A program made the position numbers and the translations under genes. A DNA stretch of 37,178 bases from a virus: IMG/VR virus record IMGVR_UViG_3300000062_000013, positions 1 through 37,178 of that record, one strand, 5' to 3'. Of this stretch, positions 1 to 37,178 are shown in pieces. The first letter of the stretch is position 1. Every line of letters starts with the position of its first letter. The notes beneath the pieces are model-generated. The model worked only from the letters and a program-made list of their open reading frames with translations. It did no database searches and was not told where the DNA came from.

Positions 1-79
1 CGGCGGTGGTGGGGGCGGCGGCGGATTTTCTGGCGGTGGTGGGGGCGGTGGCTCCGGAAGTGGTAGCGGCGAAGTTATT
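1..79. repeat. Terminal overlap, identical to 37100..37178
   Basis: Base-by-base comparison gives 79/79 identity. The repeat is inside, and in phase with, the tape-measure coding frame. Confidence 0.95.
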
Positions 80-524: not shown

Positions 525-893
525 ATGACGGAAATGTTATTAATTAATGGGCGACATATCGGCAAAATTGAATCTTTCGGCAGCGAAAAATATACGGAAG
601 AAAGAGAAATGACAACGGTAAGCGGTCGCTTGGTAACGGATATTGTATATGAAAAATATAAATTCAATGTTACTTACCGTTTTTTAACGGATGAGGAATT
701 AACATTTTTAATTAATGCGATAAAAAATAAAGTGTTTACTGCTACATTTTTGGATAAAGAAACGCTCCAAAAAATTAGTCGTCAATGTTATTTATCGCCG
801 CCCAATAATATCCGAATCGGGGACGGTTTCGATATTGAAACGCGATTATGGGACCGTTTAACATTTTCGGCAGTTGCTACCGAAGCGGAATAA
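525..893 (+). CDS. Tail component in the distal-tail-protein (Dit) position; function by synteny only
   Basis: ATG is 1 nt after the tape-measure stop, giving a 122-aa ORF. Its position immediately after the tape measure is the only functional evidence. Confidence 0.6.
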   Translation: MTEMLLINGRHIGKIESFGSEKYTEEREMTTVSGRLVTDIVYEKYKFNVTYRFLTDEELTFLINAIKNKVFTATFLDKETLQKISRQCYLSPPNNIRIGDGFDIETRLWDRLTFSAVATEAE

Positions 894-901
894 GTGATAA
901 A

Positions 902-2683
902 ATGCAAACTGTATCCAGTGATTATTTAGAAGTTATTGATAAGCAATTTCGCCGTCGGGTAACGATGAACAGTATTTTATCTTTGGCGAATCCTGCTGAT
1001 GTTGAAAGAACAAGTTTTGAAAGTGGTTCTCCCGAATCGGTTATTTCAAATCATAATCAACTTTACGACCAAATAACAAAAATGAGCTACGGATGGAACA
1101 CTTTGGAACCCGACCGCGTTAATTCTTCCGGTGATTTTGTTATTTTTGATTTAGATACTGTCGGGCAATACGGTTTTTGGACGGATGAAATGTGCGATGA
1201 ATTTGGCATTTTCGCTACGCCGCAAACCATTAAATTGACATATTCCGAAATTTTAAGTTTTAATAATTTAATGGTTTTCTTTGACAATTACGCGAGTGAA
1301 TACGCTAGTGATTTTGAAATTACTTTTTATGATAATCAAGGCGTATCCGTTTATAATAAACGGATACCGGACAATGATTCCGTTAATTTTTCTTTGGATA
1401 ATCGCGTTAATTTTGTTTCCGCCATTGAATTGAAAATTTATAAATGGTCTAAACCGTTCCGCCGTGCAAAAGTTTTAGAAATATTGAACGGTTCAATAAT
1501 TGAGTTTACCGATAACGAAATTGTAGGATATAATTCTATTGATAATTTTTCGATATTGGAAGAAGTGTTTATTGTATCCCAACAGTCGCTTGATATTGAA
1601 AATTTACATTCGCGATTTAATCCATTACATACCGAAGGTATTTTTAATCAATTGCAAAATAAACAAATTTTTCAAACGGAATTTAATATTAATGGCGTTA
1701 CGTTGTCTGCCGGTATTGGTTATTTATGGAATTATGAAAATTACGGCAATATAACTTCATTTAAAATGCGGTCCGTTTATGAATTTATCAACGGTTTATA
1801 TATCGCTGAATCATACGAAGAAATAACAGCAATGGACTTATTCATTAAATTATTTTCTTTGGCAAATATTACCGAATATTCAATAAGTCCGGAACTTGCC
1901 GATATCGTTTTAAATCAATATGTGCCGGAAATGAATTTATCAGATGCGTTTCAATTTGCAGCAAATGCGGCTTCTGCTTATATTTTTATCCAAAAAAGCG
2001 GAATTATTACTATTGAATTGATAAGAAATATTTTTACAAATTCGGTTGCCGTTATTGATTTTAATTTTATTTATCCGAATGGAAAATCATATTATCCGCA
2101 AATTAACCAAAAAGATTTAATTGATGGTGTTACCGCTAACATTTATAAATATAATGTTGATTCCGAAGCTGTAACGGAACCGCTCGTTACCGATTTGGAA
2201 ATAAGTTTCCCTGATGACGGTTTTATTTACATTGAATATGGAGCTATTGCAGATTCGGTTACTGCTACTGCTTCTTCCGGTTCTTTTTCGGATGTAGTAT
2301 ATTTTGCTGATAAATTAAAATTATCGGGTTCTGGCGACATTGTTATAAGTATTGAAGGACGTAAAATAACCCAAAATGTTATTAAAAAAACCGTAACAAA
2401 AGATAATATTTCATCTATTAAAATTGAAAATATCGCGGTTGTTGATAATCCTTTTATAAATACGATATCAAGAGCTGTCATAATGTCTAATTTAAAATTA
2501 CAATTAAATGATTATTATACCCAAATTGTATTTAATGATAGGGGGCGCCCCGATTTAGAATTAACGGATTTTATAACTGTTGAAACTGAATATGGTTTTA
2601 TTAATGGATTAATTACAGAACAGCGATTTAATTGGAATAAATTTTTAACTGGTTACGTTGCTGTTGATTGTAAGAAGAATTAA
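902..2683 (+). CDS. Tail-associated / baseplate protein (Tal position), function by synteny
   Basis: Long ORF (track 848..2683). I prefer the ATG at 902, just after the upstream TAA at 891..893, because 848 has no SD and would overlap the upstream gene by 46 nt. No catalytic motif recognised. Confidence 0.6.
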   Translation: MQTVSSDYLEVIDKQFRRRVTMNSILSLANPADVERTSFESGSPESVISNHNQLYDQITKMSYGWNTLEPDRVNSSGDFVIFDLDTVGQYGFWTDEMCDEFGIFATPQTIKLTYSEILSFNNLMVFFDNYASEYASDFEITFYDNQGVSVYNKRIPDNDSVNFSLDNRVNFVSAIELKIYKWSKPFRRAKVLEILNGSIIEFTDNEIVGYNSIDNFSILEEVFIVSQQSLDIENLHSRFNPLHTEGIFNQLQNKQIFQTEFNINGVTLSAGIGYLWNYENYGNITSFKMRSVYEFINGLYIAESYEEITAMDLFIKLFSLANITEYSISPELADIVLNQYVPEMNLSDAFQFAANAASAYIFIQKSGIITIELIRNIFTNSVAVIDFNFIYPNGKSYYPQINQKDLIDGVTANIYKYNVDSEAVTEPLVTDLEISFPDDGFIYIEYGAIADSVTATASSGSFSDVVYFADKLKLSGSGDIVISIEGRKITQNVIKKTVTKDNISSIKIENIAVVDNPFINTISRAVIMSNLKLQLNDYYTQIVFNDRGRPDLELTDFITVETEYGFINGLITEQRFNWNKFLTGYVAVDCKKN

Positions 2684-2723: not shown

Positions 2724-3128
2724 ATGATAGATTGGCTTACAGCTGACGAATTTAAAACGATGTTTCCCAGTACTGAAATATCGGAAGATGATTTTAAAGT
2801 TTTCAAAGATTCGGCAACAGAGGACATTAATTTTATAACTTCGGATAAAATTATTAAACTTGGTTTTGATAATTTAGAATCATGGGTACAGCACCGTATC
2901 AAGCGAGCTATCGCGTATCAAATTTTATTTTATAATGATAATGGCGGACTTGACGGCATGACGGAAGAAGATTATAATTCGGCTTCGGTCGGTTCTTTTT
3001 CTATTTCACAGGGCGGCAGTTCGCCAAATATTTCGCCGTTTATAATAAACGGCAGGCGAGCTCATCCAAAAATTAAAGAACTTCTCATGACAACGAATTT
3101 ATTAAACGCTGCTGTAAATGGAATTTAA
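2724..3128 (+). CDS. Hypothetical tail-module protein
   Basis: 134-aa ORF co-oriented within the tail operon, TAA stop. Contains one copy of the genome-wide palindrome (3036..3052), translated as SPFIING. Confidence 0.6.
   Translation: MIDWLTADEFKTMFPSTEISEDDFKVFKDSATEDINFITSDKIIKLGFDNLESWVQHRIKRAIAYQILFYNDNGGLDGMTEEDYNSASVGSFSISQGGSSPNISPFIINGRRAHPKIKELLMTTNLLNAAVNGI
3036..3052. repeat. Palindrome copy P1, CCGTTTATAATAAACGG (19-bp palindrome with flanks 3035..3053), inside a CDS
   Basis: Read directly. Lies within 2724..3128. Confidence 0.95.
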
Positions 3129-3142
3129 AAAAGGTGTTAAAA

Positions 3143-4765
3143 ATGGCAACCGTAAACGATTACGATTCTTTGGCTCTTGCGCTTCATTATGATTCTATCC
3201 ATAATGTCAGCAAATCATTGCCGCATAATCCTGCCGCTTCGGGTTGGAATGACATTTCTGGTAATAATAGAAATGGAACGTTTGCCACAAGCGGTTTTGA
3301 ATGGATTGATGAAAAAGGATTAAGATTCAACGGCGGGCAACGCTTAACATATTCAGCTTCGGGAATAACGATTAACCGAAGTTATACAATGTCGGTTTTA
3401 TTTAAACCCGTATTTGTTGGCTCATATCCACGTTTATTTGCAGAAAATACATTTCCCACGTTGTATTTAAGAACAAATGATTCTAATTTTACATACGGTG
3501 TTTATTCGCATGGTATTGATACCAATTATTTGGACCCGAACGGGCAACCAATTAGACCAATTGAAAACGATTGGAACCACGCTACCGTTGTTTATAATTA
3601 CGATACAAAAACTTTAAAACTTTATGTAAACGGTTTACTCGTTTCGACAAGAACAAATTTAACAACAACGGCAACGAATCAAAACATAGCTTATTTGGGT
3701 GCACGCTCTCAAAATGATAGATTTTTTACAGGTTCGATAAGTACCTTTATGCTATATGAAAGAGCGTTATCCGATACCGAAGTTTTAAATAATTATAAAA
3801 TCGATTATGAAAGATACGTAGTTGAGCCCGAACCCGAACCGCCAGAACCAATAACGGATACACCTATAAAAGTAATTGAAGGTATGTTTGAAAGTTCCCA
3901 AAATGGCTATGAGTGGGACATTTCTATTTTAAAATCTGAATTTTCAGAACGTCCGCCGTTTTTGATATTTTCAGATAATCAGAAAAATCCCCTTTATTTT
4001 AATCTCGAAAAAGAAACGGCAACAACATTATTTTATACCGTCCGTTTAAACGTTGTTGCCGGATTAAATGAAGTCTATATTTATGCTGCTGATAGCGATA
4101 AAAGCGATGAACGAAAAACATTTACAGAATTTACATCTTTTGCAAATGGGTTGCCGTGGGGTTGGCAAACAGCACCACACAGCGGCACATTATCAAGCCA
4201 AAATGATTTTAATAGTTTACAATGGGTTAATAATTTGGGTACTTTTTGGTTTGCAGAAAACGGATTTTTAAGACATCAAGGTGGCGATTCCTTTTTAAGA
4301 CCGCCTTTGCGCATGACGGAAGAAAGCAAGGGATTTACTTATGAATCGTTATTAGAATGTTTACCACATAACACTTATTGGATTTTTGGTTTCGGTTCAC
4401 GCAATACCAGTGCCGGAAATCATGCAGACGGTATTAATTGTAGAGATGCCTCAATGAGTGAGGTTTTTAATGCCATTAATGCCGTTTCATTTGGAAATTT
4501 CAATATTGAATCAACCCTTACAAAATTTGTTGCAGGTTTTTCCGTTTATGAAAACTCCGGAAAAGCGTATTTAATAAGAGAATCAACTTATACAAAATTC
4601 CAAAGTAACGAAGGCGTAAGAACTAATGACATTTCCCAAACGCGATTTTCTTTAAAATATTGGGGCGGTTATCAACAATCGCGTTGGTATTGGATGAGAA
4701 AAAGGCATAACCCGATACCGAACACGTTTATTATTAAAGATTATGAGCCCCCGATTCCCGAATAG
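3143..4765 (+). CDS. Tail fibre / receptor-binding protein with concanavalin-A-like (LamG) lectin domain; ends at an in-frame TAG
   Basis: ATG at 3143 is preceded by AAAAAGGTG. The N-terminal region (GLRFNGGQRLTY ... WNHATVVYNYDTKTLKLYVNGLLVS ... FMLYERALSDTEV) fits the Laminin_G_3 pattern common in phage fibres. An EPEPEPPEP linker follows. The apparent stop is TAG at 4763..4765, and the frame stays open into 4811..5206. Confidence 0.65.
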   Translation: MATVNDYDSLALALHYDSIHNVSKSLPHNPAASGWNDISGNNRNGTFATSGFEWIDEKGLRFNGGQRLTYSASGITINRSYTMSVLFKPVFVGSYPRLFAENTFPTLYLRTNDSNFTYGVYSHGIDTNYLDPNGQPIRPIENDWNHATVVYNYDTKTLKLYVNGLLVSTRTNLTTTATNQNIAYLGARSQNDRFFTGSISTFMLYERALSDTEVLNNYKIDYERYVVEPEPEPPEPITDTPIKVIEGMFESSQNGYEWDISILKSEFSERPPFLIFSDNQKNPLYFNLEKETATTLFYTVRLNVVAGLNEVYIYAADSDKSDERKTFTEFTSFANGLPWGWQTAPHSGTLSSQNDFNSLQWVNNLGTFWFAENGFLRHQGGDSFLRPPLRMTEESKGFTYESLLECLPHNTYWIFGFGSRNTSAGNHADGINCRDASMSEVFNAINAVSFGNFNIESTLTKFVAGFSVYENSGKAYLIRESTYTKFQSNEGVRTNDISQTRFSLKYWGGYQQSRWYWMRKRHNPIPNTFIIKDYEPPIPE

Positions 4766-4810
4766 GATTTTATACCAATCCGTTTTTGGACTGGCACAAG
4801 AACCGATTAT

Positions 4811-5206
4811 GTGAATGCGGAAGATTATAATAGAATTTCCAATAACATAGCCATAGTTAATGAAATTTATTCACGCCTCGGATATGTCGGCGAGCTCCGA
4901 CCAATGCGATGCGATTGGGATATATACCCCCTATGCATGACTTTTAAACAGTATTGGGCGAATATGCGCTTAAACATACAGGACCTTTACTTAATGTTTC
5001 CGTATGCTAAAATTTTTCCAAACGCTCCCCTGTATCCGTTATTTAATCCGCCTGGGGTTTTAAATCCTGTGGAAAGATTAACGGCAGACTTATTAAACGC
5101 TATGGAAATTACGCTTAAAAATTTATATGAATTTTCAATATCATTTGACCGCTTACCGATTTTACTTACAGAAAACCGTATGCGTCAAAGAATTGTTAGG
5201 AAGTGA
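4811..5206 (+). CDS. Tail-fibre C-terminal segment; probably the read-through continuation (from 4766) of 3143..4765 rather than an independent gene
   Basis: Same frame as 3143..4765 with no stop between 4766 and 4810. The only candidate start is a GTG with no SD. The FWTGTRTDYVNAEDYNRISNN motif (the DxNRIxxN type seen in Firmicutes-phage fibre proteins) begins upstream of that GTG. Confidence 0.55.
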   Translation: MNAEDYNRISNNIAIVNEIYSRLGYVGELRPMRCDWDIYPLCMTFKQYWANMRLNIQDLYLMFPYAKIFPNAPLYPLFNPPGVLNPVERLTADLLNAMEITLKNLYEFSISFDRLPILLTENRMRQRIVRK

Positions 5207-5212
5207 AATAAA

Positions 5213-7141
5213 ATGACAGATAGCTATAATAACCGATTTCAAGATGAAATATTATCGCCTGCTGAGCCAATATATGATATAAAAAAAGTATCGGATAACA
5301 GCATAATTTTAGAAGATATTCAATTATTGCTTAAAAACACTATCGTGCAAGAGGGCAATTTTTTGAATGCAGCTGTCATGAATAATATTCTTGGTCGCAT
5401 TAATGCAAATTCTAAAAATTTAGCTTCGGTAATGTTAATTGTAAATAGTATGCGTCGCATACAATCCTCCGGTACGGATAATCTTGAAATAACAGGAATC
5501 AATGACGAAACCGATTTATTTATGAAAAACAATCATTCAGATTTTGGAATTTTAGCAGCAAACGTATCAGCAGGTATAAATCAAATTAAAATAATTAACG
5601 CTAGCGGTTTTAGATTTAATTCTTCATTTGATATTAATGTTCAAAGCTCTAATTCTTTTAATCAAGTATCAGTAAAAGTTGGGAATTTTATTGCATTAAA
5701 TAAAGCTGTTATTGATGTTATAAATAATGCTTTAAACAGAAGCATTCAATGGTGTTATGGAAAAATAGGTGTTAATTCAATATTGGAAGGCGGTATTTCA
5801 ACTGACCAAACTACAACTGAAAAATTAAATTTAATAAATCTTTTAACAAATACGAACGTCCAAGTTTTTCCAATACCAAGATATGTCGCTATTAGAATTT
5901 ATGATGAAGAGGATAAATGTGCATACGCATTAGGGTTTATTTATAACCAATATAATAACGCAGTTATGTGGAAAACAAATCAAATATCTGAAAATCAAAC
6001 GTCATTCACAAATACGCAAATAGCAACGCTTAATGGTTTTGGGTTAAATAACAATTTTTCGGATTATTCAAACTCCGCACAGGCTTTTTATAATATTTTT
6101 CCTTTAAAACCGAAAGGTGTCAAAGCAGCTTATAATTTCGCTCTTGATATAACGCAAGCGTCAACGGGATGGGCGGTTTGGTCGTGGGATAATAATTATA
6201 CAACATTTACAAAAACATCATTAGCGATTAGGACAACAACACAAAACCAATCTCATTTTAAAGGTTTTATAAAAGTATCGACTAATTATATCGCTTGTAT
6301 TGAGGGAATTTTATACAAATTCAAATCGCTTGCAAATGGAAAATTAGATGTATCTTCGCCGTATGAAATTTTGACAATTCCATTTTTAAACGGTCGAACG
6401 ATTAATAATATTTCTTTAACTGACAATGTTGCATTTATATATGGTACAAATTCGTTATTAGCTTACTCTTTGGATGGTGTAAATTGGACGGAAATCATAA
6501 TGAATAACGATTCGTTAAAAAATACAAACTATTTTACTGGAATATATGTAATTGAAGATAATTCAATTTATGTGTCTACTCAACATCCTACGCAATCATC
6601 AAGGCAACAAATTTTTAAATATGAATCTTTCAATCCCGAAAATTTCAAAAATAAAAAATATGTTTTAAATACCGAACCCGTTTTAATTAATTCGGTTTCG
6701 TTGGTTGCAAATGACATTATTTTAGGCCTGAATTCGTCATTATTGCAAAATCATACGCAAGGGGAATTATTAAGAAGAACGAATAATTCAACGATTCCGC
6801 CGAACTCGAAAGTAAATGTAACCGTTGAAATTGAAAATTTATTTTCGCATAACGCCGTCGTTTTATTCCCGCAATTCACGAATTTACAAAATGTATCAAT
6901 CGACGCAGAAATTTCACATCGGAATAATATTAATGAATTGGAAAATTTTGAAAATATTCCGCTTGTTCACGAAATAGAATTAAATGCAGATTGGCGCGAA
7001 CAAACATATTATCTTAATTTTCCAAATGAATCTTCTATTTTCGCGGCTTCATTTACGGTTACAAATAATAATGAATTTGCAATAGAATTGTTTCAATTGA
7101 TAGCGATTTTATACGATGAAATTTATGATACAGGGGTATAA
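5213..7141 (+). CDS. Large tail fibre / host-recognition protein, possible beta-propeller with an Asp-box-like motif
   Basis: 642-aa ORF with SD AGGAAGTGA upstream. Asn/Ser-rich. YSLDGVNWTEI resembles a BNR/Asp-box, one residue short of consensus. Sits at the distal end of the tail module. Confidence 0.6.
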   Translation: MTDSYNNRFQDEILSPAEPIYDIKKVSDNSIILEDIQLLLKNTIVQEGNFLNAAVMNNILGRINANSKNLASVMLIVNSMRRIQSSGTDNLEITGINDETDLFMKNNHSDFGILAANVSAGINQIKIINASGFRFNSSFDINVQSSNSFNQVSVKVGNFIALNKAVIDVINNALNRSIQWCYGKIGVNSILEGGISTDQTTTEKLNLINLLTNTNVQVFPIPRYVAIRIYDEEDKCAYALGFIYNQYNNAVMWKTNQISENQTSFTNTQIATLNGFGLNNNFSDYSNSAQAFYNIFPLKPKGVKAAYNFALDITQASTGWAVWSWDNNYTTFTKTSLAIRTTTQNQSHFKGFIKVSTNYIACIEGILYKFKSLANGKLDVSSPYEILTIPFLNGRTINNISLTDNVAFIYGTNSLLAYSLDGVNWTEIIMNNDSLKNTNYFTGIYVIEDNSIYVSTQHPTQSSRQQIFKYESFNPENFKNKKYVLNTEPVLINSVSLVANDIILGLNSSLLQNHTQGELLRRTNNSTIPPNSKVNVTVEIENLFSHNAVVLFPQFTNLQNVSIDAEISHRNNINELENFENIPLVHEIELNADWREQTYYLNFPNESSIFAASFTVTNNNEFAIELFQLIAILYDEIYDTGV

Positions 7142-7425: not shown

Positions 7426-7455
7426 AATCCGTTTATTATAAACGGATTCTTTTTT
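7426..7455 (+). terminator. Palindrome copy P2 extended to a 23-bp palindrome (AATCCGTTTATTATAAACGGATT) plus T-run; intrinsic-terminator-like
   Basis: Core at 7429..7445, flanking arms at 7426..7448, then C + T6 (7450..7455). Starts 10 nt after the TGA of the last tail gene. Confidence 0.7.
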
Positions 7456-8818: not shown

Positions 8819-9637
8819 ATGTCTGGGCTTAACGCTTTTCAATATATGGGCAGTAAATTAAATACGCTGCCTTTCCTGTATCGGAATTTTCCAAAAAATT
8901 ACCAAAAAATGCATTTCGTTGATGTGTTCGGCGGTTCCGGAGTTGTAACATTTAATAAGCCGCTGTCGGCTTTGGAAACCTACAACGATTTAAATTCAAA
9001 TGTGGTTCGCTTCTTTACGATTTTAAGAGAAGATTACGAAACCGCAATAAACGCTATCGGATACACGCCTTTTAATAGGGAAGAATACGATATAGCGGCA
9101 AAAACATTATCGGGGGGGGGCGGTACAGAATTAAGCGATTCAGACTTTGCCCGCTATTGGTATCTGCTTTTTAATGGTTCTTTTAACGGTAGCATTGAAC
9201 AAGGCGGCAGTTTTAAAACAATCATCGACCCGAACGGAGCGAATCCTGCCGTTAATTATTTTAACAAACAAAAGAAGTTAAAAGAAATTTCAAAACGGTT
9301 ATCAGCTGTTCAAATTGAAAATAAACCTTATTCGTATATTTTGCAAAAATACGATAGGGAAAGTACTTTTTTTTATTGCGACCCTCCTTATGTTTTGGAA
9401 ACGCGAACGGATAAAACGATTTATAAAAGATTCGATTTCACCGACAACGACCAAAAGAGATTTTTGAAACAAGTAAAAGCATTATCGGGCAAAGTCATGG
9501 TTTCAAATTATGATAATGATTTATACAACGATTCGTTATTGGATGACGGTTGGAGAAAATTGGCAGATAAAGAAAAAGTTATTGCCAGCTCAAAATTAAG
9601 GCGGTCGCAATCCGAAATAATCTATGTGAATTATTAA
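8819..9637 (+). CDS. DNA N6-adenine methyltransferase, D12 (Dam) class
   Basis: Three motifs fit the Dam/D12 class: N-terminal FQYMGSKLN, the AdoMet motif VDVFGGSGVV, and the catalytic FFYCDPPYV (DPPY). Carries a G9 homopolymer at 9112..9120. Confidence 0.8.
   Translation: MSGLNAFQYMGSKLNTLPFLYRNFPKNYQKMHFVDVFGGSGVVTFNKPLSALETYNDLNSNVVRFFTILREDYETAINAIGYTPFNREEYDIAAKTLSGGGGTELSDSDFARYWYLLFNGSFNGSIEQGGSFKTIIDPNGANPAVNYFNKQKKLKEISKRLSAVQIENKPYSYILQKYDRESTFFYCDPPYVLETRTDKTIYKRFDFTDNDQKRFLKQVKALSGKVMVSNYDNDLYNDSLLDDGWRKLADKEKVIASSKLRRSQSEIIYVNY
9112..9120 (+). repeat. G9 homopolymer inside the methyltransferase gene
   Basis: Reads tcg ggg ggg ggc ggt, encoding SGGGG. It is the longest G run I saw in this AT-rich genome. 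Confidence 0.9.
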
Positions 9638-11914: not shown

Positions 11915-11938
11915 TAATTATCCCTCAAAAAAGTAAAA

Positions 11939-11967
11939 AATAAGCCGTTTATTATAAACGGCTTATT
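11939..11967 (-). terminator. Palindrome copy P3 extended to a 29-bp palindrome (AATAAGCCGTTTATTATAAACGGCTTATT); terminator/attenuator-like on the minus strand
   Basis: Core at 11945..11961. On the minus strand it is followed by TTTTTTACTTTTTT. Lies between the DUF669-like stop (11963) and the polymerase start (11914). Confidence 0.6.
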
Positions 11968-12601
11968 CTGTGAAAATTTGTTTTTCAAGTTCAGCAATGT
12001 CGCTTAATTGCTTTTCAGCAAGCCCATAAGCATAAATGTTTGAATAAATATCGCCGGTCTTTTCGTTCTCGGTTTCAGTCTTTTCAATCAAATACATAAC
12101 GCCGTATGTGTATTCTTTGGTTTTTTTGTCTTTGAATGTTGAAAAAGCGTCATTGAGAGCAATACAATCTTCATCAATGTTATCAACACCGGCAAAATTA
12201 AATCCCTTGGTACGGATAAATTCAGCTTTATTTTGAGCTGCCCAAAAACTCGGTATCAGGCGGTTCAAATTGTAATAAAACATTTGAATGTTTTTCTTTA
12301 TACGTTTTTTATCATCATCGTTATCTTCCGATAGCTTTTTATCATAAATCGTATAAAGTTGATTATCAAGCTTACCATAAAATAAACCGTCGCCGCTTAC
12401 GCTTTGCTGAATCTGCCAAACAATTTTAGCATAAATATTGCCTTTCGTTTTTTCGCTTTGGCTTTCAAAAGTTTTCACTTCAAAAAGCGTAGCAACATAT
12501 TGGTCCGGTGGCAACGGCTCATTAAATAAATCGAATCCGTTGCGTTTGTCGTTGTAATTGTCCCAATCGTTGATTTCATCATTTAAATTTTCGTATGTCA
12601 T
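11963..12601 (-). CDS. DUF669-like protein (tentative), replication/recombination module
   Basis: 212-aa ORF next to the ERF gene. The LPPDQYVATLFEVKTFESQSEKTKGNIYAKIVWQI pattern resembles DUF669 as I recall it. Not verified. Confidence 0.5.
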   Translation of the reverse strand: MTYENLNDEINDWDNYNDKRNGFDLFNEPLPPDQYVATLFEVKTFESQSEKTKGNIYAKIVWQIQQSVSGDGLFYGKLDNQLYTIYDKKLSEDNDDDKKRIKKNIQMFYYNLNRLIPSFWAAQNKAEFIRTKGFNFAGVDNIDEDCIALNDAFSTFKDKKTKEYTYGVMYLIEKTETENEKTGDIYSNIYAYGLAEKQLSDIAELEKQIFTE

Positions 12602-23658: not shown

Positions 23659-23683
23659 AATCCCGTTTATTATAAACGGGATT
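23659..23683. terminator. Palindrome copy P9 extended to a 25-bp palindrome (AATCCCGTTTATTATAAACGGGATT); bidirectional terminator-like
   Basis: Core at 23663..23679. Lies between convergent genes ending at 23547 (+) and 23692 (-). T-rich sequence follows on both strands (TTTCTTATTTT and ATTATTTTTTTT). Confidence 0.65.
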
Positions 23684-28406: not shown

Positions 28407-29177
28407 ATGTCCCCTGGTTTAGAATTTTACGATTTGACCGTTCAGGCAGAAATTTATGATGTCATTGCCGATATTGAAAATGGTATGCTTATGAATATTG
28501 GAAAAGTATTTAGAAGCAATAAAAACGATATCGGCAGCGTTCAATGGGAAATAGAAAAATTATCAATGGCGGGCAGACTTACGCGGTCAAATTTAAATGT
28601 GATAGCGGCAAACGCTGACAGGTCCTATAAAGCTATTGAAAAAGAATTTATCGCTATGGGGCATACTGTTATAAAAAATAATACAGCTTTATTAAAAAAT
28701 ACCGTATCAGTCGGTAATATGCAAGCTGTGGATAATATCGCAAAAGCGTATGCGAAAAACGCGTACAGCGGCGTTAATTTATCCAATACGGCGGCATTAC
28801 AGGCTGCCAATCGCGAATTTATAAACGTTGTAAATAAAACTGTCGTTTCGGTATCTCGCGACATTGTAACACCGCAAGAAGCTTTAAAACAGGCATTAAG
28901 CGACTTAGGCGGTAGCGGTTTAAAAATTGATTATGTAAGTGAAAGTGGGCGACGCACTAGCACTACTTTGGATGTTGCCGTTAGGCGTGATATAAGAACG
29001 ACATCGGCACAGGTTAGTCGTGAAATTCAACTTTCCAAAAATGAAGAATGGGGGGTTGATTTAATTGAAATTTCCAGTCATTACGGAGCCCGTCCGAAAT
29101 GTGAAGAATGCCAAGGGAAAATATATTCGCTATCGGGACAATCTACAAAATACCCAGCGTTTTCAGAATCGACATAG
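28407..29177 (+). CDS. Minor capsid / head-morphogenesis protein (Phage_min_cap2 / SPP1 gp7-like), N-terminal part ending at an in-frame TAG
   Basis: Sits directly after the portal gene. Ends ...SSHYGARPKCEECQGKIYSLSGQSTKYPAFSEST then TAG at 29175..29177. The conserved block continues in the same frame downstream. Confidence 0.7.
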   Translation: MSPGLEFYDLTVQAEIYDVIADIENGMLMNIGKVFRSNKNDIGSVQWEIEKLSMAGRLTRSNLNVIAANADRSYKAIEKEFIAMGHTVIKNNTALLKNTVSVGNMQAVDNIAKAYAKNAYSGVNLSNTAALQAANREFINVVNKTVVSVSRDIVTPQEALKQALSDLGGSGLKIDYVSESGRRTSTTLDVAVRRDIRTTSAQVSREIQLSKNEEWGVDLIEISSHYGARPKCEECQGKIYSLSGQSTKYPAFSEST

Positions 29178-29483
29178 GGCGAACCCGATGGGCTTTTCGG
29201 TATCAATTGCAGGCATACATTTTATCCGTTTGTGGACGGCGTTAGCTCGCAACGTAATTTTCCGGTAGATGAAGAAGAAAACAAACGTATTTATGCTGAA
29301 AGTCAAATGCAGCGCTCGCTTGAGCGTGATATTCGTTCTGCAAAGCGTGAAGAATTAACTTTGAAGGCTGCCGGCATTGATTCATCGGCGGCTCATCAAC
29401 GCGTAAAAGAAACACAGGCGGATATGCGCAAATTTGTAAATGAAACAGGGCGAACCCGTGAACGGACCCGCGAATTAATTTAA
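29178..29483 (+). CDS. C-terminal continuation of the minor capsid / head-morphogenesis protein (ORF track lists 29232..29483 from a GTG)
   Basis: Same frame as 28407..29177 with no further stop. 29178 onward reads GEPDGLFGINCRHTFYPFVDGVSSQRNFP. This is the conserved GLxGxNCRH core of the family, and it lies upstream of any possible start codon. Confidence 0.65.
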   Translation, partial: GEPDGLFGINCRHTFYPFVDGVSSQRNFPVDEEENKRIYAESQMQRSLERDIRSAKREELTLKAAGIDSSAAHQRVKETQADMRKFVNETGRTRERTRELI

Positions 29484-29737: not shown

Positions 29738-30349
29738 ATGGCAGAACCTCAACCACCACAACCCCCAGAACCGCCTAAACCACCTCAACCGCCCGAACCT
29801 CCGGCACCGCCTAAACCACCTCAACCGCCCGAACCTCCGGCACCGCCAGAGCCACCTCAACCGCCCGAACCCGAAAAAAAATCATATTCGCAAGCTGAGC
29901 TTGACGCAATGGTTGAAAGGGGAAAAGCGCAAGAACGCAAAAAGTTTGAAAAAAACCAATTGCCAGAGGACCAATTAAAGAAATTCCAAGAGTGGCAAAA
30001 GACACAAAAGACACCCGAAGAATTGAAAGCGGAAGAACTCATGCAGAAAACGCAAGCCGAAAATGATTTGAAAAAGAAATCGTTGGACCTTGACCGTAAA
30101 ATTGCATTAATTGATTTGGGCATTACGGACAAAGACAACCGTATATTAATTTCTGTTTTGGCAGAAAGAGAAATGAAAGCAGGCGATGACGAAGAAGCCT
30201 TTAATAAATATGCGGCTGCTGCGTGGGAAAAGTTCAAAGACAAACTCGGCGATGACAAACTGGCAAGCGGACAAGGACAAGGGAGAAAAGTTCCGCCCGC
30301 TGCCGATACCAGAACCGATACACATAATAAACTTTATCCGAAAAAATAA
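29738..30349 (+). CDS. Scaffolding protein (DUF4355-like) with N-terminal proline-rich repeat
   Basis: Sits immediately before the major capsid gene. Charged, helical K/E-rich body. N-terminal PQPPEPPxPP repeats are encoded by a 36-bp tandem repeat. Confidence 0.6.
   Translation: MAEPQPPQPPEPPKPPQPPEPPAPPKPPQPPEPPAPPEPPQPPEPEKKSYSQAELDAMVERGKAQERKKFEKNQLPEDQLKKFQEWQKTQKTPEELKAEELMQKTQAENDLKKKSLDLDRKIALIDLGITDKDNRILISVLAEREMKAGDDEEAFNKYAAAAWEKFKDKLGDDKLASGQGQGRKVPPAADTRTDTHNKLYPKK
29771..29872 (+). repeat. 36-bp tandem repeat, 2.8 copies, encoding PPKPPQPPEPPA
   Basis: 29771..29806 and 29807..29842 are identical. A diverged partial third unit runs to 29872. Lies inside the scaffold gene. Confidence 0.9.
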
Positions 30350-32400: not shown

Positions 32401-32925
32401 ATGGATAATTTAATAGGTTATGTTTTTGGAAACAATTTATCAAGTCCGCTTACAGTAGCGGCAGCTTGGTTATTTGGTTTCATTGGAACATTCATCGGCT
32501 TTTGTTTCGGTAATTGGTGGGGGCTCATCATCATTCTTTTATTTTTGATGTTTGCCGATACCATTATTGGAATTGCAGCAGCTCGGAAATTGGGCGAACC
32601 CGTAACAAGCGAAACATTTTGGGAAAAATTCTTTTGGCATAAAGTCATCGGATACGGTTTTGCTATTGGAATTGCGGTTTGTTTTGATAAATTTATTTTG
32701 GTTTATCTGACAAACGGTATTGATTTGATTTCGTTTGTTAATTGGATTCCGTTTGCGGACGAAATTGTCGCGTTCCTCATTACTGTTATTATGGTTTCTT
32801 GGTTAATTTTTAAAGAAACATGGTCCGTTATTGAGAATTTATCAATTATTGATTCCAAAATAATTCCGTCGCCTATCAAAAAGGCAGTATTAAAAATGAT
32901 GGGTATATTTAACCCCGAAGATTAA
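32401..32925 (+). CDS. Holin-family membrane protein (Phage_holin_4_1 / TcdE-like)
   Basis: Several hydrophobic helices. MFADTIIGIAAARKLGEPVTSETF parallels the DT(I/L)xGxxxAxK..S motif of this holin family. The C-terminal ETWSVIENLSII..IPSPIKK parallels its E.xSIxEN...P motif. Confidence 0.6.
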   Translation: MDNLIGYVFGNNLSSPLTVAAAWLFGFIGTFIGFCFGNWWGLIIILLFLMFADTIIGIAAARKLGEPVTSETFWEKFFWHKVIGYGFAIGIAVCFDKFILVYLTNGIDLISFVNWIPFADEIVAFLITVIMVSWLIFKETWSVIENLSIIDSKIIPSPIKKAVLKMMGIFNPED

Positions 32926-35288: not shown

Positions 35289-37178
35289 ATGAGTGATTCC
35301 GACGGAAAAGTAACAATTGAAGTTATAGCCGATAATAAAAAAGCGCTGAAAACAATTCAAGAAACCAAAGAAACATATAAGAAAGGCGGCGCCGATATCG
35401 AAAAAGATTTTTCTGCAAATCTAAAAGATGTAGAAAAATCTTTTGAATCGTTAGGCGAAGAAGCTAATGATTCAATGGATAAAATTAATAGCGGCGGCAA
35501 TGAATCGAGCGACAAACTTAATAAAGTGATGACAGGCGCAACGGTTGCAATCGGCGCCGCATTTGCAGCTATGGCAGCTGTTGCGGTTGCTGCTTTGGTT
35601 CAAATTTCCAAAGAAAGTTTAAAACTTTTTGTGTCTTATGATGACGCTTTGAGAGAAATGCAAACCGAAATTGATATGAGTACAGCGGAGGGCGTTGCTG
35701 ATTTTGAACAATTGAAAGACGCAATTAGAGAAGTCGGCGTAACTACAAAATTCACAGCTTCCGAAGCGGCAGACGCAATGAATATTTTGGTAAGCGCGGG
35801 GTATAGTGCTGCTGATAGCGTTTATATGTTAAATGAAGCGGCTAAAATGGCAACCATTACTAAAATGAGTTTAGCCGATACCGTTAATTTATTGGATAAT
35901 TCGATTACCGTTTTGGGTTTAGACGCTTCACAAACAGGCGGATTCATTGATAAATTAGCTAAAGCTTCTTTGGACGGTAAAGCGTCAATGAGCGAACTTA
36001 GCGAATCTTTGGAAGGCGTTGGAACATTAATGAGCTCCGCAAACCAAGATATAGATAAAATGACTGCCGCTTTCGCTTTGTTATCAAATGAAAACATAAA
36101 AGGCGCTGAAGCAGCAGGCACCATGAAAAATCTTATTATTGGATTACAAAAACCGACAACCGAAGCGGCAGACAGTTTGAAAAAATTGGGCGTATCCGTT
36201 TATAACACAGACGGAACAATGCGCGACGTTTTGGATATTATAACAGATTTAAATACGGCTACGGCAGACTTGGACGCGAAAAGTAAAGATGATATCTTCA
36301 ATAATTTATTTTCAAAAAGGGACGTAGTTGCCGTTCAAGGTTTAATGCGTCAGATTGATAAAGATAGCGGGCAACTTTATACAAATCTCGTTGAAAATTC
36401 GGAAGGAGCCGCCGCTGCAATGGCTGAAACGTTAGAGGGCGGCGTTGGTGGATTAATTCGGTCATTTAAAGGTATGGCGGAAGAAATGAAATTAACAATA
36501 GGTGAGCCGCTAGCGGATATTATGAATGATATTTTACCAATTGTAAAAGAAGCGTTTAGCGAAATAATGACAGCCGTTAAAGGTTTCTTTGAAGCGTTTA
36601 CACCCGAACAAATGGAAGCGCTTAAAAACGCTATCGGTTATATTGTTGAATATGCGAAAATCGCTATATTGCATTTGATTAATATTGCAACCGTAATAAT
36701 TCCGTTGTTGGCTGACGGTTTTGTTTTAATTATGCGTTTAATTTCTCCAATTTTAGATATCGGGTTAAAGATTTTTAAATTATTGTCTGTCGGTATCGTT
36801 GAAGCGTATAAATTAGTGGCTTCTGCTGTTCGTTTATGGTGGAAACAAGTAAATGATTTATATACAGTAGTCAAACCCGCTTTAACTTTTGTTTATGATA
36901 TGTTAAATGTTATTTTGGATGAAATGACAAAAATTTACGATGTCGGCAAAAGTGTTTTAAGCGCTTTGGGATATGAATTTAAAGAAACTGAAACTTCAAT
37001 ATCAGGCGTAACCGAAGAAATACAAAATGTTAAAAATGAATTAACAGCCCTTGACGGAACAACTGCGAACGTTACGGTTAATACCAATTATTCAAGTTCC
37101 GGCGGTGGTGGGGGCGGCGGCGGATTTTCTGGCGGTGGTGGGGGCGGTGGCTCCGGAAGTGGTAGCGGCGAAGTTATT
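35289..37178 (+). CDS. Tail tape measure protein, N-terminal 630 codons (open at window end; continues at base 80 after collapsing the terminal overlap)
   Basis: ATG at 35289 with GGGAGG SD. No stop through 37178 (1890 nt, exactly 630 codons). Ala-rich helical and hydrophobic segments are typical of tape measures. Not in the ORF track because it has no stop inside the window. Confidence 0.8.
   Translation, partial: MSDSDGKVTIEVIADNKKALKTIQETKETYKKGGADIEKDFSANLKDVEKSFESLGEEANDSMDKINSGGNESSDKLNKVMTGATVAIGAAFAAMAAVAVAALVQISKESLKLFVSYDDALREMQTEIDMSTAEGVADFEQLKDAIREVGVTTKFTASEAADAMNILVSAGYSAADSVYMLNEAAKMATITKMSLADTVNLLDNSITVLGLDASQTGGFIDKLAKASLDGKASMSELSESLEGVGTLMSSANQDIDKMTAAFALLSNENIKGAEAAGTMKNLIIGLQKPTTEAADSLKKLGVSVYNTDGTMRDVLDIITDLNTATADLDAKSKDDIFNNLFSKRDVVAVQGLMRQIDKDSGQLYTNLVENSEGAAAAMAETLEGGVGGLIRSFKGMAEEMKLTIGEPLADIMNDILPIVKEAFSEIMTAVKGFFEAFTPEQMEALKNAIGYIVEYAKIAILHLINIATVIIPLLADGFVLIMRLISPILDIGLKIFKLLSVGIVEAYKLVASAVRLWWKQVNDLYTVVKPALTFVYDMLNVILDEMTKIYDVGKSVLSALGYEFKETETSISGVTEEIQNVKNELTALDGTTANVTVNTNYSSSGGGGGGGGFSGGGGGGGSGSGSGEVI
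37100..37178. repeat. Terminal overlap, identical to 1..79
   Basis: See 1..79. Confidence 0.95.

What the first reader, a model, noticed from the sequence alone, without database searches (positions are those of the whole stretch)
3143..5206. Second in-frame TAG fuses the LamG tail-fibre ORF to the downstream ORF
TAG at 4763..4765 is followed in the same frame by DFIPIRFWTGTRTDY and then the track ORF starting VNAEDYNRISNN... (4811..5206). There is no stop between 4766 and 4810. There is no ATG, GTG or TTG in frame before the GTG at 4811, and no SD in front of it, whereas almost every other gene here has an obvious SD. The W..T..DY.NAEDYNRI..N motif, which I recognise as the start of a conserved fibre module, straddles the proposed GTG start. 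Both in-frame TAGs share the local context A-TAG-G.
Basis: partly seen in the sequence, partly recalled or inferred. Interest (0 to 1): 0.75.

Follow-up and report, generated by a model that had tools for sequence, protein, structure and literature searches.

The report
Conserved amber codon joining fibre modules
In this 37-kb phage a TAG "stop" codon sits inside the tail-fibre gene and is almost certainly translated, joining a sugar-binding fibre to a conserved 146-residue end module; the same TAG is kept at that joint in seven related phages, none shown to carry a suppressor tRNA.

Summary
ATG 3143 to TAG 4763-4765 encodes 540 aa. The same frame stays open to TGA 5204, with no start codon before GTG 4811.

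Of 45 genes, only two end in TAG, and both run on in frame. The other TAG (29175) lies mid-domain in minor capsid protein 2, whose homologues are single ~365-aa chains.

Seven related lineages from other metagenomes have TAG at the same joint, one codon before an invariant FIPI motif. Their upstream parts and Pro/Glu linkers differ. Only one lineage (L005) has the module as a separate gene, and it starts 8 codons before FIPI, not at the 4811 equivalent. Relatives carry further in-frame TAGs, including one in an SNF2 helicase.

The window has no tRNA, release-factor or tRNA-synthetase gene, so who decodes TAG is unknown.

I read this as sparse amber recoding or suppression, a known kind of phenomenon. 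It has an unusual, strictly conserved TAG at a domain joint, which suggests selection on the codon itself.

Unproven:
- the amino acid inserted
- the read-through efficiency
- the host
- the function of the module

The parts
3143..4762 (+). Fibre ORF up to the amber codon (540 aa): N-terminal LamG-type domain, a linker, then a ~300-aa fibre body
   Evidence: The body is homologous to the ORFs that precede the module in L007, L009, L010, L013 and L002.
3332..3784 (+). Laminin_G_3 / concanavalin-like lectin domain (aa 64-214). It is present only in the window's version of the fibre.
   Evidence: PF13385, E 4.2e-20. The relatives' fibres start at the body.
3818..3865 (+). Pro/Glu-rich linker VVEPEPEPPEPITDTP between LamG and the fibre body
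4739..4762 (+). Pro/Glu-rich linker DYEPPIPE just before the TAG. Relatives have analogous linkers (EPEPPDPEI, IEPEPE, NAPIPP).
4763..4765 (+). In-frame amber codon TAG at the joint between body and module (context GAA TAG GAT TTT ATA CC)
   Evidence: TAG is at the same position in 7 lineages. The motif TAGGWWTTTATHCC is unique to the joint.
4766..4810 (+). Start-less conserved segment DFIPIRFWTGTRTDY, the true N-terminal part of the module
   Evidence: FIPI is invariant, with synonymous codon turnover. pLDDT is 89 for residues 1-10.
4811..4813 (+). GTG that table-11 ORF finding takes as the start. Rejected as the real start.
   Evidence: No Shine-Dalgarno sequence. There is no start at the equivalent position in any relative.
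4766..5206 (+). Conserved C-terminal module (146 aa plus TGA stop). It is mostly helical and belongs to no known family.
28407..29483 (+). Minor capsid protein 2 gene, interrupted by the window's other in-frame TAG (29175-29177, codon 257)
   Evidence: PF06152 matches as one stretch, aa 15-345, E 1.8e-72. The listed homologues other than the window's own fragment are single chains, mostly ~365 aa. The TAG column is Tyr in 32 of 42.
848..2683 (+). Conserved 611-aa tail-tip protein upstream (synteny anchor of the clade)
5213..7141 (+). Conserved 642-aa protein that follows the module directly in every lineage

Best explanation
TAG 4763 is decoded as an amino acid by elongating ribosomes. The real gene is then 3143-5206 and encodes a 687-aa tail fibre. 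Its parts are a LamG lectin domain, a PE linker, a fibre body, a second PE linker, the TAG-encoded residue, and a conserved 146-aa helical end module.

This is one instance of sparse amber suppression or recoding that runs through a small clade of siphoviruses. One member comes from a landfill biofilm metagenome. TAG is hardly ever a true terminator in the clade. A few TAGs lie inside ordinary genes: minor capsid protein 2 in the window, and a Gp15-like protein, a 138-aa head-tail protein, the fibre body and an SNF2 helicase in relatives.

The window's complete genome encodes no tRNA, release factor or tRNA synthetase. Decoding must therefore be supplied by the host or by an unrecognised factor (inferred).

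The joint TAG differs from the other TAGs. It is kept in every fused lineage while neighbouring codons turn over. I infer selection on TAG itself. The most likely reason is that decoding is incomplete or conditional, so the codon sets how much fibre carries the end module, or when. This would work like the leaky stop of Qbeta A1 or the frameshift-extended tail proteins of other phages.

Shown: the sequence anatomy, the conservation, and the absence of a start codon or tRNA. Inferred: that the fusion protein is made, the partial termination, and the role of the module.
For: - **Stop usage.** TAA 35, TGA 8, TAG 2. Both TAGs are followed by in-frame, start-less coding sequence.
- **Capsid TAG.** It sits mid-domain: PF06152 matches in one stretch across it. 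The listed homologues other than the window's own fragment are single chains, mostly ~365 aa.
- **Joint TAG in seven lineages.** These are the window, L001/L002, L006, L007/8/12, L009, L010 and L013. Pairwise module identity is 34-84% (mostly 34-66%). The TAG is always exactly one codon before FIPI and always follows a variable PE-rich linker.
- **No fused homologue with a sense codon.** The 6 module-containing representatives found among 1.84 billion are all 70-160 aa.
- **Codon turnover.** 16 of 21 invariant module residues use two or more codons among the seven lineages, yet TAG is 7 of 7. The Ile after the TAG uses ATA, ATC and ATT and is never ATG, GTG or TTG, so it is read as Ile, not as an initiator.
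- **Start codons after stops.** After TAG the first ATG is 37-152 codons away. After in-frame TAA or TGA it is 0-10 codons away in nearly every case. Fisher p = 3.6e-5.
- **Other TAGs in relatives.** Homology-supported in-frame TAGs occur in other genes of relatives.
- **No decoding genes.** No tRNA by ARAGORN, Rfam or a CUA-anticodon-arm scan. No release-factor or synthetase genes by Pfam.
- **Genome completeness.** The genome is complete and circularly permuted.
- **Structure.** The AlphaFold model places the segment between TAG and GTG confidently in the fold.
- **Literature.** TAG-recoded phages of 22-34 kb exist, and only about 40% of recoded genomes have a detectable suppressor tRNA (10.1101/2021.08.26.457843).
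Against: - There is no protein-level evidence.
- No decoder was identified.
- Residues aligned to TAG sites are inconsistent: Tyr, Trp, Leu, Gln/Asp/Glu, Lys/Arg, Val/Ala, Ser. No single amino acid can be assigned, and Gln (code 15) is not favoured at the only conserved column.
- One lineage (L005) makes the module as a stand-alone protein, and structural neighbours in BFVD are stand-alone ~160-aa proteins. The module therefore does not need to be fused.
- No conserved RNA structure follows the TAG.
- The +4 G is frequent (9 of the first 10 sites) but not universal. TAG-T and TAG-A sites also look read through.
- The idea of two products rests only on conservation of the codon.
Confidence: 0.75

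Rival explanations
1. Termination and reinitiation. The fibre ends at TAG (540 aa). Ribosomes then restart two codons downstream at the Ile codon AUH of FIPI, using UAGGA, which overlaps the stop, as a Shine-Dalgarno sequence. Fibre and module would be separate proteins made in a coupled way.
For: TAGG[A/T] is conserved at all seven joints and resembles an AGGA Shine-Dalgarno core 4 nt before AUH. The two intervening codons show little variation (GAA in 5 lineages, GAT, GTA; TTT in all 7). L005 shows that the module can work as a separate protein.
Against: The putative start is ATA in 3 lineages, ATC in 2 and ATT in 2. It is never ATG, GTG or TTG, although such a change would cost nothing at the protein level and would raise initiation. 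AUA and AUC are very poor initiators; this rests on general knowledge and was not tested here. In L005 the conserved protein starts 8 codons upstream and includes W-D-F. The rival does not explain the mid-domain TAGs in the minor capsid protein, Gp15, the helicase and others, which have no such cassette. It does not explain the PE linker before the TAG either.
Confidence: 0.08
2. Two ordinary genes under table 11. The fibre stops at TAG and the module starts at GTG 4811, as the ORF list suggests.
For: GTG 4811 is the first canonical start in frame. Public gene callers split the locus.
Against: There is no Shine-Dalgarno sequence. The 15 upstream codons are conserved at protein level, with synonymous changes. 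No relative has a start at the equivalent position; their first starts lie 21-46 codons in and would delete invariant residues. Gene callers in fact picked different internal Met codons in each lineage.
Confidence: 0.04
3. Nonsense mutations or assembly errors in a defective metagenomic genome, so that both genes are pseudogenes.
For: TAG 29175 is one substitution away from the Tyr codon found in relatives. That TAG is specific to the window.
Against: The joint TAG is found in independent assemblies from JGI, ENA, Logan and IMG/VR, in seven diverged lineages. Two independent assemblies of this phage agree. Among the called genes checked, the only start-less in-frame continuations follow TAG stops, never TAA or TGA. 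A homology-based search for in-frame TAA or TGA was too noisy to be conclusive. The genome is otherwise intact and compact.
Confidence: 0.03
4. Plain genome-wide reassignment of TAG to glutamine (genetic code 15), exactly as in crAss-like, Lak, Garnet or Topaz phages, with nothing special about the joint codon.
For: In-frame TAGs occur in conserved genes, and TAG is absent as a terminator. The phenomenon is documented in small phages, many of them without a detectable suppressor tRNA. Gln aligns with TAG at two sites.
Against: There are only 2 TAGs against 336 CAA/CAG codons. There is no suppressor tRNA. The best-conserved TAG column is Tyr or Phe. If TAG were just a rare Gln synonym, its retention at the joint in all seven lineages, while 16 of 21 invariant residues changed codon, would be unexpected.
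Confidence: 0.1

Closest known systems
Amber (TAG) stop-codon recoding in phages: genetic code 15 in crAss-like, Lak, Garnet, Amethyst and Topaz clades (Borges et al. preprint 10.1101/2021.08.26.457843; Peters et al. PMC9523058)
   Same: In-frame TAG occurs in conserved genes, and both TAGs in the window are in structural genes. TAG is depleted as a terminator. G+C is low. Genome size (37 kb) is comparable with Garnet and Amethyst. Standard-code gene calling fragments the genes.
   Different: The density is very low: 2 TAGs in 37 kb, rather than most late genes being fragmented. There is no suppressor tRNA, release factor or synthetase. Glutamine is not supported as the inserted residue. One relative comes from a landfill biofilm rather than a gut. 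One TAG is positionally fixed at a domain joint across the clade.
Programmed stop-codon read-through that makes an extended virion protein: Qbeta A1, by read-through of the coat-gene UGA (own knowledge)
   Same: A conserved stop separates a complete structural protein from an in-frame, start-less extension. A minor extended form would be a natural outcome.
   Different: Qbeta is an RNA phage with a UGA stop read by tRNA-Trp at a few per cent. Here the genome is dsDNA, the stop is UAG, and the same genomes also carry TAGs in mid-domain positions that need efficient decoding. The two-product outcome is not demonstrated here.
C-terminal extension of tailed-phage structural proteins by programmed frameshifting: lambda gpG/gpGT, SPP1 gp17.1/17.1*, Listeria phages A118 and PSA, T7 10A/10B (own knowledge; review PMC5009743 listed)
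   Same: Recoding at the end of a structural ORF would add a C-terminal domain to a fraction of the chains in a tail or head component.
   Different: The mechanism here is in-frame stop decoding, not a frameshift. There is no slippery sequence.
Sporadic in-frame TAG in ordinary genes of organisms that decode UAG constitutively as pyrrolysine, such as 'Ca. Methanomethylophilus alvus' (Borrel et al. 2014, PMC4153887)
   Same: TAG almost vanishes as a terminator (1.6% there; 0 of 43 true stops here). A handful of unrelated genes, whose homologues lack TAG, carry one in-frame TAG. No element-encoded tRNA is needed. At least one relative comes from an anaerobic habitat.
   Different: There is no evidence that the host decodes pyrrolysine. 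The nearest named homologues are from Bacillaceae prophages. The hairpin plus T-run terminators point to a bacterial host. According to that same paper, pyrrolysine-decoding bacteria do not avoid TAG stops.
Tail-fibre gene followed by a small accessory or assembly-protein gene (own knowledge)
   Same: A ~150-aa conserved protein is encoded immediately 3' of a variable fibre. It stands alone in L005, and structurally similar proteins in BFVD also stand alone.
   Different: In seven of eight lineages it has no start codon of its own and is joined in frame through TAG. It has no sequence or fold similarity to characterised fibre chaperones.

Membership tests
TAG-recoded (code 15) phages | In-frame TAG inside conserved genes, with homologues continuous across the site | tested here: met
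   Minor capsid protein 2: one PF06152 stretch spans the TAG, and homologues are single chains. The fibre joint is conserved in 7 lineages. Further sites occur in relatives.
TAG-recoded (code 15) phages | TAG avoided as a genuine terminator | tested here: met
   0 of 43 genuine stops in the window. In relatives, at most about 3 of the 10 TAG-ending called genes could be true terminators.
TAG-recoded (code 15) phages | Phage-encoded suppressor tRNA with a CUA anticodon | tested here: not met
   ARAGORN, Rfam and a custom anticodon-arm scan found none in the complete genome, nor in 10 related loci. The literature finds one in only about 40% of recoded genomes, so this feature is frequent rather than obligatory.
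TAG-recoded (code 15) phages | TAG aligns with glutamine in homologues | tested here: inconclusive
   The aligned residues are Tyr (32 of 42), Trp, Leu, Gln/Asp/Glu, Gln/Arg/Asp/Lys, Lys/Ile, Val/Ala and Ser. There are too few sites, and most are variable.
TAG-recoded (code 15) phages | High density of recoded codons, concentrated in late and lysis genes | tested here: not met
   There are only 2 TAGs in the window, both in late genes. Relatives have 2-5 each, including early genes: an SNF2 helicase in L003.
Programmed stop-codon read-through (Qbeta A1 type) | Conserved stop codon between a complete ORF and an in-frame extension that has no start codon | tested here: met
Programmed stop-codon read-through (Qbeta A1 type) | Both the terminated and the extended product are made, in a set ratio | not testable with these tools
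   This needs proteomics or a reporter assay in the unknown host.
Programmed stop-codon read-through (Qbeta A1 type) | Conserved stimulatory context or downstream RNA structure | tested here: inconclusive
   The TAG-G-[A/T] context is conserved, but the following bases also encode E/D-F-I-P. RNAalifold finds no structure (2 invariant pairs, -0.47 kcal/mol).
Pyrrolysine decoding of UAG by the host | Host with pylTSBCD; pyrrolysine found at the TAG positions | not testable with these tools
   The host is unknown. There are no relatives in the GTDB genome collection. Only indirect parallels exist.
Laminin_G_3 / concanavalin-like lectin domain (PF13385) | Profile match above the Pfam gathering score | tested here: met
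   72.9 bits against a cut-off of 27.6, aa 64-214
Phage minor capsid protein 2 (PF06152) | Full-length profile match above the gathering score | tested here: met
   244.8 bits against a cut-off of 26.3. Profile positions 12-366 of 366 match, but only when the TAG is read through.

The most novel reading that the evidence does not exclude
These phages infect a host in which UAG is decoded constitutively. Candidates are a pyrrolysine-decoding anaerobe, a bacterium with a resident amber suppressor, or a host with weakened RF1. This would explain why the phages need no tRNA, avoid TAG as a terminator and pick up stray in-frame TAGs.

The joint TAG would be kept for one of two reasons. It could encode a residue with no synonymous codon, such as pyrrolysine. 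Or it could be a selected leaky stop that sets the ratio of fibre chains with and without the end module. The second case would be a programmed read-through in the tail fibre of a dsDNA phage.
Probability: 0.15. Interest if true: 0.85.

Novelty: new variant of a known kind. Interest (0 to 1): 0.6.

Why it matters
- **Annotation.** Standard-code gene callers cut this fibre and the minor capsid protein into fragments. In every member of the clade they start the end module at arbitrary internal Met codons. The public protein sets therefore misrepresent these genes.
- **Detection of recoding.** Amber recoding can be so sparse, at two codons per genome, that code-prediction methods based on coding density would miss it. 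It also occurs outside gut phages and without a suppressor tRNA.
- **A testable case.** A stop codon fixed at a domain joint over deep divergence is a concrete case for asking whether phages use a leaky stop to set the make-up of a receptor-binding fibre.
- **Host clue.** The pattern (no TAG terminators, stray in-frame TAGs, no tRNA) says something about the translation system of the unknown host.

Tried and rejected
- **DNA similarity.** Megablast of 25 kb, and tblastn of the module, against GenBank phages gave no match. tblastn of the large terminase found only distant hits (at most 36% identity), with hosts not informative.
- **Module searches in collections.** IMG/VR and the GTDB genomes gave nothing. 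JGI metagenomes gave two loci of one lineage.
- **Tail-tip protein searches.** The 611-aa protein found nothing in GTDB genomes, so there is no prophage and no host. IMG/VR gave L011-L013.
- **Joint pattern without the TAG.** An exact-pattern scan of IMG/VR, meant to find lineages with a sense codon at the joint, gave two unrelated chance hits.
- **Fibre body search.** The search for homologous proteins with the fibre body returned nothing, not even the protein itself. That search was wasted, and I do not treat it as evidence of absence.
- **Module family and fold.** No Pfam family, no PDB sequence and no PDB fold match. BFVD gave only uncharacterised ~160-aa phage proteins, TM 0.5-0.58.
- **RNA structure.** No conserved structure lies after the TAG.
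- **Control for in-frame TGA and TAA.** A homology-based control was swamped by antisense and off-frame HSPs. I replaced it with the called-gene test. Two apparent TAG sites in L003 (3716, 4769) turned out to be codons containing N.
- **Ribosomal hop.** A hop over the TAG in the manner of T4 gene 60 was considered and rejected. The codons before and after the TAG do not match in most lineages.
- **Archaeal host.** A methanogen host was considered because of the pyrrolysine parallel. It is judged less likely because of the Bacillaceae-like homologues and the hairpin plus T-run terminators.
Full report
**1. The observation**

The window is a complete, circularly permuted siphovirus genome of about 37.1 kb.
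- Its two ends share 79 nt inside the tape-measure gene.
- A twin assembly of 37,204 bp exists in ENA.

At the site of the finding:
- ATG 3143, preceded by AAGGTG, opens a frame that runs to TAG 4763-4765 (540 codons).
- The same frame continues without a stop through DFIPIRFWTGTRTDY (4766-4810), passes GTG 4811 and ends at TGA 5204-5206.
- There is no ATG, GTG or TTG in 4766-4810, and no Shine-Dalgarno sequence before 4811.
- Residues 64-214 are a Laminin_G_3 lectin domain (PF13385, E 4e-20).

**2. Is it more than chance?**

I listed 45 genes by hand. Their stops are TAA 35, TGA 8 and TAG 2.

The two TAG 'stops' are the only places where reading TAG as sense merges two real ORFs:
- the fibre with its downstream ORF;
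- the ORF pair 28407-29177 and 29232-29483.

That second pair is minor capsid protein 2.
- With the TAG read through, PF06152 matches in a single stretch, aa 15-345 against profile positions 12-366 of 366, E 1.8e-72.
- The listed homologues other than the window's own fragment are single chains, mostly ~365 aa.
- The TAG lies 10 residues before the invariant GINC.H motif.
- It aligns with Tyr in 32 of 42 homologues (Phe 5, Lys 2, Met 2, Ile 1).

This phage therefore needs TAG decoded to make an essential head protein. It never uses TAG as a plain terminator.

**3. Relatives**

The 146-aa end module is rare.
- A phmmer search of 1.84 billion representatives found six clusters, all 70-160 aa.
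- A word-based search found one.
- All but one were called from internal Met codons.

I fetched their contigs, plus two more loci through JGI metagenomes and three through IMG/VR. They are syntenic siphoviruses with this gene order:
1. tape measure
2. a ~127-aa protein
3. a ~600-aa protein
4. the fibre ORF
5. the module
6. a ~650-aa protein

One of them, L013, comes from a landfill biofilm metagenome.

Seven lineages have the fibre ORF ending in TAG and running in the same frame straight into [E/D/V]-F-I-P-[I/T]:
- the window
- L001/L002/L003
- L006
- L007/L008/L012
- L009
- L010
- L013

Other features of these joints:
- The TAG is always exactly one codon before FIPI.
- The sequence before it is a Pro/Glu-rich linker of variable length (PPIPE, EPEPPDPEI, IEPEPE, NAPIPP).
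- L002 even carries an extra ~90-aa domain before the TAG.
- The window itself uses the same kind of linker (VVEPEPEPPEPITDTP) between LamG and the fibre body.
- The fibre bodies are homologous to one another.
- The LamG domain is an N-terminal addition found only in the window.

Only L005 has the module as a separate gene.
- It lacks a fibre ORF.
- Its module gene starts at an ATG eight codons before DFIPIR (MSEDVSTW-DFIPIR) and overlaps the stop of the 593-aa gene.

**4. Is the stretch after the TAG translated, and how?**

- **FIPI is read as protein.** It is invariant in all eight lineages. Its Ile and Pro codons vary synonymously (ATA/ATC/ATT; CCA/CCT/CCG).
- **Codon turnover.** Sixteen of 21 invariant module residues use two or more codons among the seven fused lineages, yet the TAG is 7 of 7.
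- **Structure.** The AlphaFold model of the module (pLDDT 75.7, pTM 0.73) gives residues 1-10 a pLDDT of 89, so the segment before GTG 4811 is part of the fold.
- **Start codons.** In the relatives the first canonical start after the TAG lies 21-46 codons downstream, at non-equivalent positions.
- **All called genes, window plus five relatives.** Nine of 12 TAG-ending genes are followed by at least 40 open in-frame codons, with the first ATG 37-152 codons away. The 22 TAA/TGA-ending genes with such an open stretch have an ATG within 0-10 codons in nearly every case, so they are ordinary adjacent genes. Fisher p = 3.6e-5.

The main rival is termination followed by reinitiation at the Ile codon, with UAGGA acting as a Shine-Dalgarno sequence. 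It cannot be excluded from the joint sequence alone, but four points weigh against it.
- That codon is ATA, ATC or ATT and never ATG, GTG or TTG.
- The conserved protein in L005 begins upstream of it.
- The model does not explain the linker.
- The model does not explain the other in-frame TAGs.

No conserved RNA structure follows the TAG. The motif TAGGWWTTTATHCC occurs only at the joint.

**5. Other in-frame TAGs in the clade**

Sites supported by homology:

| Locus and position | Gene | Residue in homologues |
|---|---|---|
| L007 3988 and L013 6885 | Gp15-like protein | Gln, Arg, Asp, Lys |
| L009 4123 | end of Gp15 | Lys, Asn, Arg, Asp |
| L010 407 | 138-aa head-tail protein | Lys, Ile |
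| L010 9095 | fibre body | Phe, Val, Ala |
| L011 11825 and L013 11854 | 17 codons into the fibre | Ser or Phe (ambiguous, L009) |
| L013 5301 | not identified | Tyr (L007) |
| L003 8453 | SNF2 helicase | Leu (window) |
| L003 7623 | not identified | Gln (window), Asp, Glu |

- TAG decoding is therefore a property of the whole clade and is not confined to late genes.
- Most aligned residues are one substitution away from TAG. This is what stray mutations tolerated under suppression would look like. They do not identify a single inserted amino acid.
- These sites are specific to one lineage or shared only by close relatives. The joint TAG is the exception.

**6. Who decodes TAG?**

- The complete window has no tRNA by ARAGORN, by Rfam at E up to 1, or by a scan for a CUA anticodon arm.
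- The ten related loci scanned (L001-L010) have none either.
- Pfam and PHROG annotation shows no release factor or synthetase. It does show a terminase, an SPP1-type portal, minor capsid proteins, a tape measure, an ERF recombinase, an SNF2 helicase, a D5-type primase, a ParB-like protein and a Dam-type methylase.
- No relative was found in the GTDB genomes, so the host is unknown.
- The closest named homologues of the minor capsid protein are from Bacillaceae prophages, at about 38% identity.
- The genome has hairpin plus T-run terminators. A bacterial host, probably from the Bacillota, is most likely.

**7. Comparison with what is known**

- **Amber recoding in phages.** It is well documented, including clades of 22-34 kb. 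Only about 40% of TAG-recoded genomes have a detectable suppressor tRNA (10.1101/2021.08.26.457843). Proteomics has validated TAG = Gln in crAss-like phages (PMC9523058). The present case fits the kind but differs in several ways. It has very low density and no tRNA. Glutamine is not supported. One relative comes from a landfill biofilm rather than a gut. One TAG is fixed at a domain joint.
- **Pyrrolysine decoders.** The pattern of no TAG terminators plus stray in-frame TAGs also parallels organisms that decode UAG constitutively as pyrrolysine (PMC4153887). Amber avoidance has been used as a host signal for viruses of such archaea (PMC6336856). Nothing here shows such a host.
- **Extended virion proteins.** In function, a conserved stop before a start-less extension recalls Qbeta A1 and the frameshift-extended tail and capsid proteins of lambda, SPP1, A118/PSA and T7 (own knowledge).

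**8. Verdict**

Best explanation (confidence about 0.75): TAG 4763 is translated. The product is a 687-aa fibre made of LamG, fibre body, linker and end module. This is part of clade-wide sparse amber suppression or recoding by an unidentified decoder.

The strict conservation of this one TAG suggests selection on the codon itself. The likely reason is that decoding is partial or conditional and so controls how much fibre carries the module. That step is inference.

Novelty: a new variant of a known kind. Interest: moderate to high (0.6).

**9. Limits**

- There are no protein data and no read data.
- There is no host.
- The inserted amino acid is unknown.
- The function of the module is unknown. 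It matches no Pfam family, PDB sequence or PDB fold. Its only structural neighbours are uncharacterised ~160-aa phage proteins in BFVD.
- One capped protein search returned nothing and was wasted.

Noticed in passing
window 1347, 3036, 7429, 11945, 15117, 16078, 18654, 20782, 22003, 23663, 26892, 29501, 31728, 35261: A 17-nt near-palindrome, CCGTTTATAATAAACGG, occurs at 14 places with up to 2 mismatches; 0.01 are expected by chance. Most copies lie between genes. Several sit inside longer hairpins followed by a T-run (7426-7448, 11937-11969, 23659-23683), so they look like a family of intrinsic terminators with a shared core. The core also contains TATAAT. One copy occurs in the L001/L002/L003 phage.
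   Followed up: partly
window 29746-29871: A 36-nt tandem repeat of 3.5 copies encodes a Pro-rich N-terminal stretch of gene 29738-30349. The twin ENA assembly (L004) has one more 36-nt copy, so the repeat number varies between assemblies.
   Followed up: partly
window 1-79 and 37100-37178: The two ends of the window overlap by 79 nt within the Gly-rich repeat of the tape-measure gene (777 aa in L004). The window is a circular contig cut inside that gene. For that reason the gene does not appear in the ORF list.
   Followed up: yes
L007 12993-13001 (minus strand): The homologue of the window's 624-aa protein appears split in L007. A 591-aa ORF ends in TGA. A 59-aa ORF follows that still aligns with the C-terminus of the L003 homologue and itself ends in TAG with a 14-codon extension. 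This could be a split, an error or further recoding.
   Followed up: no
L010 8906-10330; L013 11806-13206: Some relatives have two in-frame TAGs in the fibre gene. L010 has them at 9095 and 9860. L013 has them at 11854 and 12748, and the first of these is shared with L011.
   Followed up: partly
window 8819-9637: A D12-class N6-adenine DNA methyltransferase (PF02086, E 6e-27) lies at the end of the rightward late block.
   Followed up: no
window 32401-32925: A 174-aa protein lies between the Minor_capsid_2 gene and the tail genes. The precomputed Pfam hits label it Phage_holin_4_1, which is an odd position for a holin. No clear endolysin or integrase was recognised anywhere in the genome.
   Followed up: no
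window 2724-3128: A 134-aa protein matching PHROG 541 ('head-tail adaptor', E 1e-16) lies among the tail-tip genes, just upstream of the fibre. It is absent at this position in the relatives.
   Followed up: no
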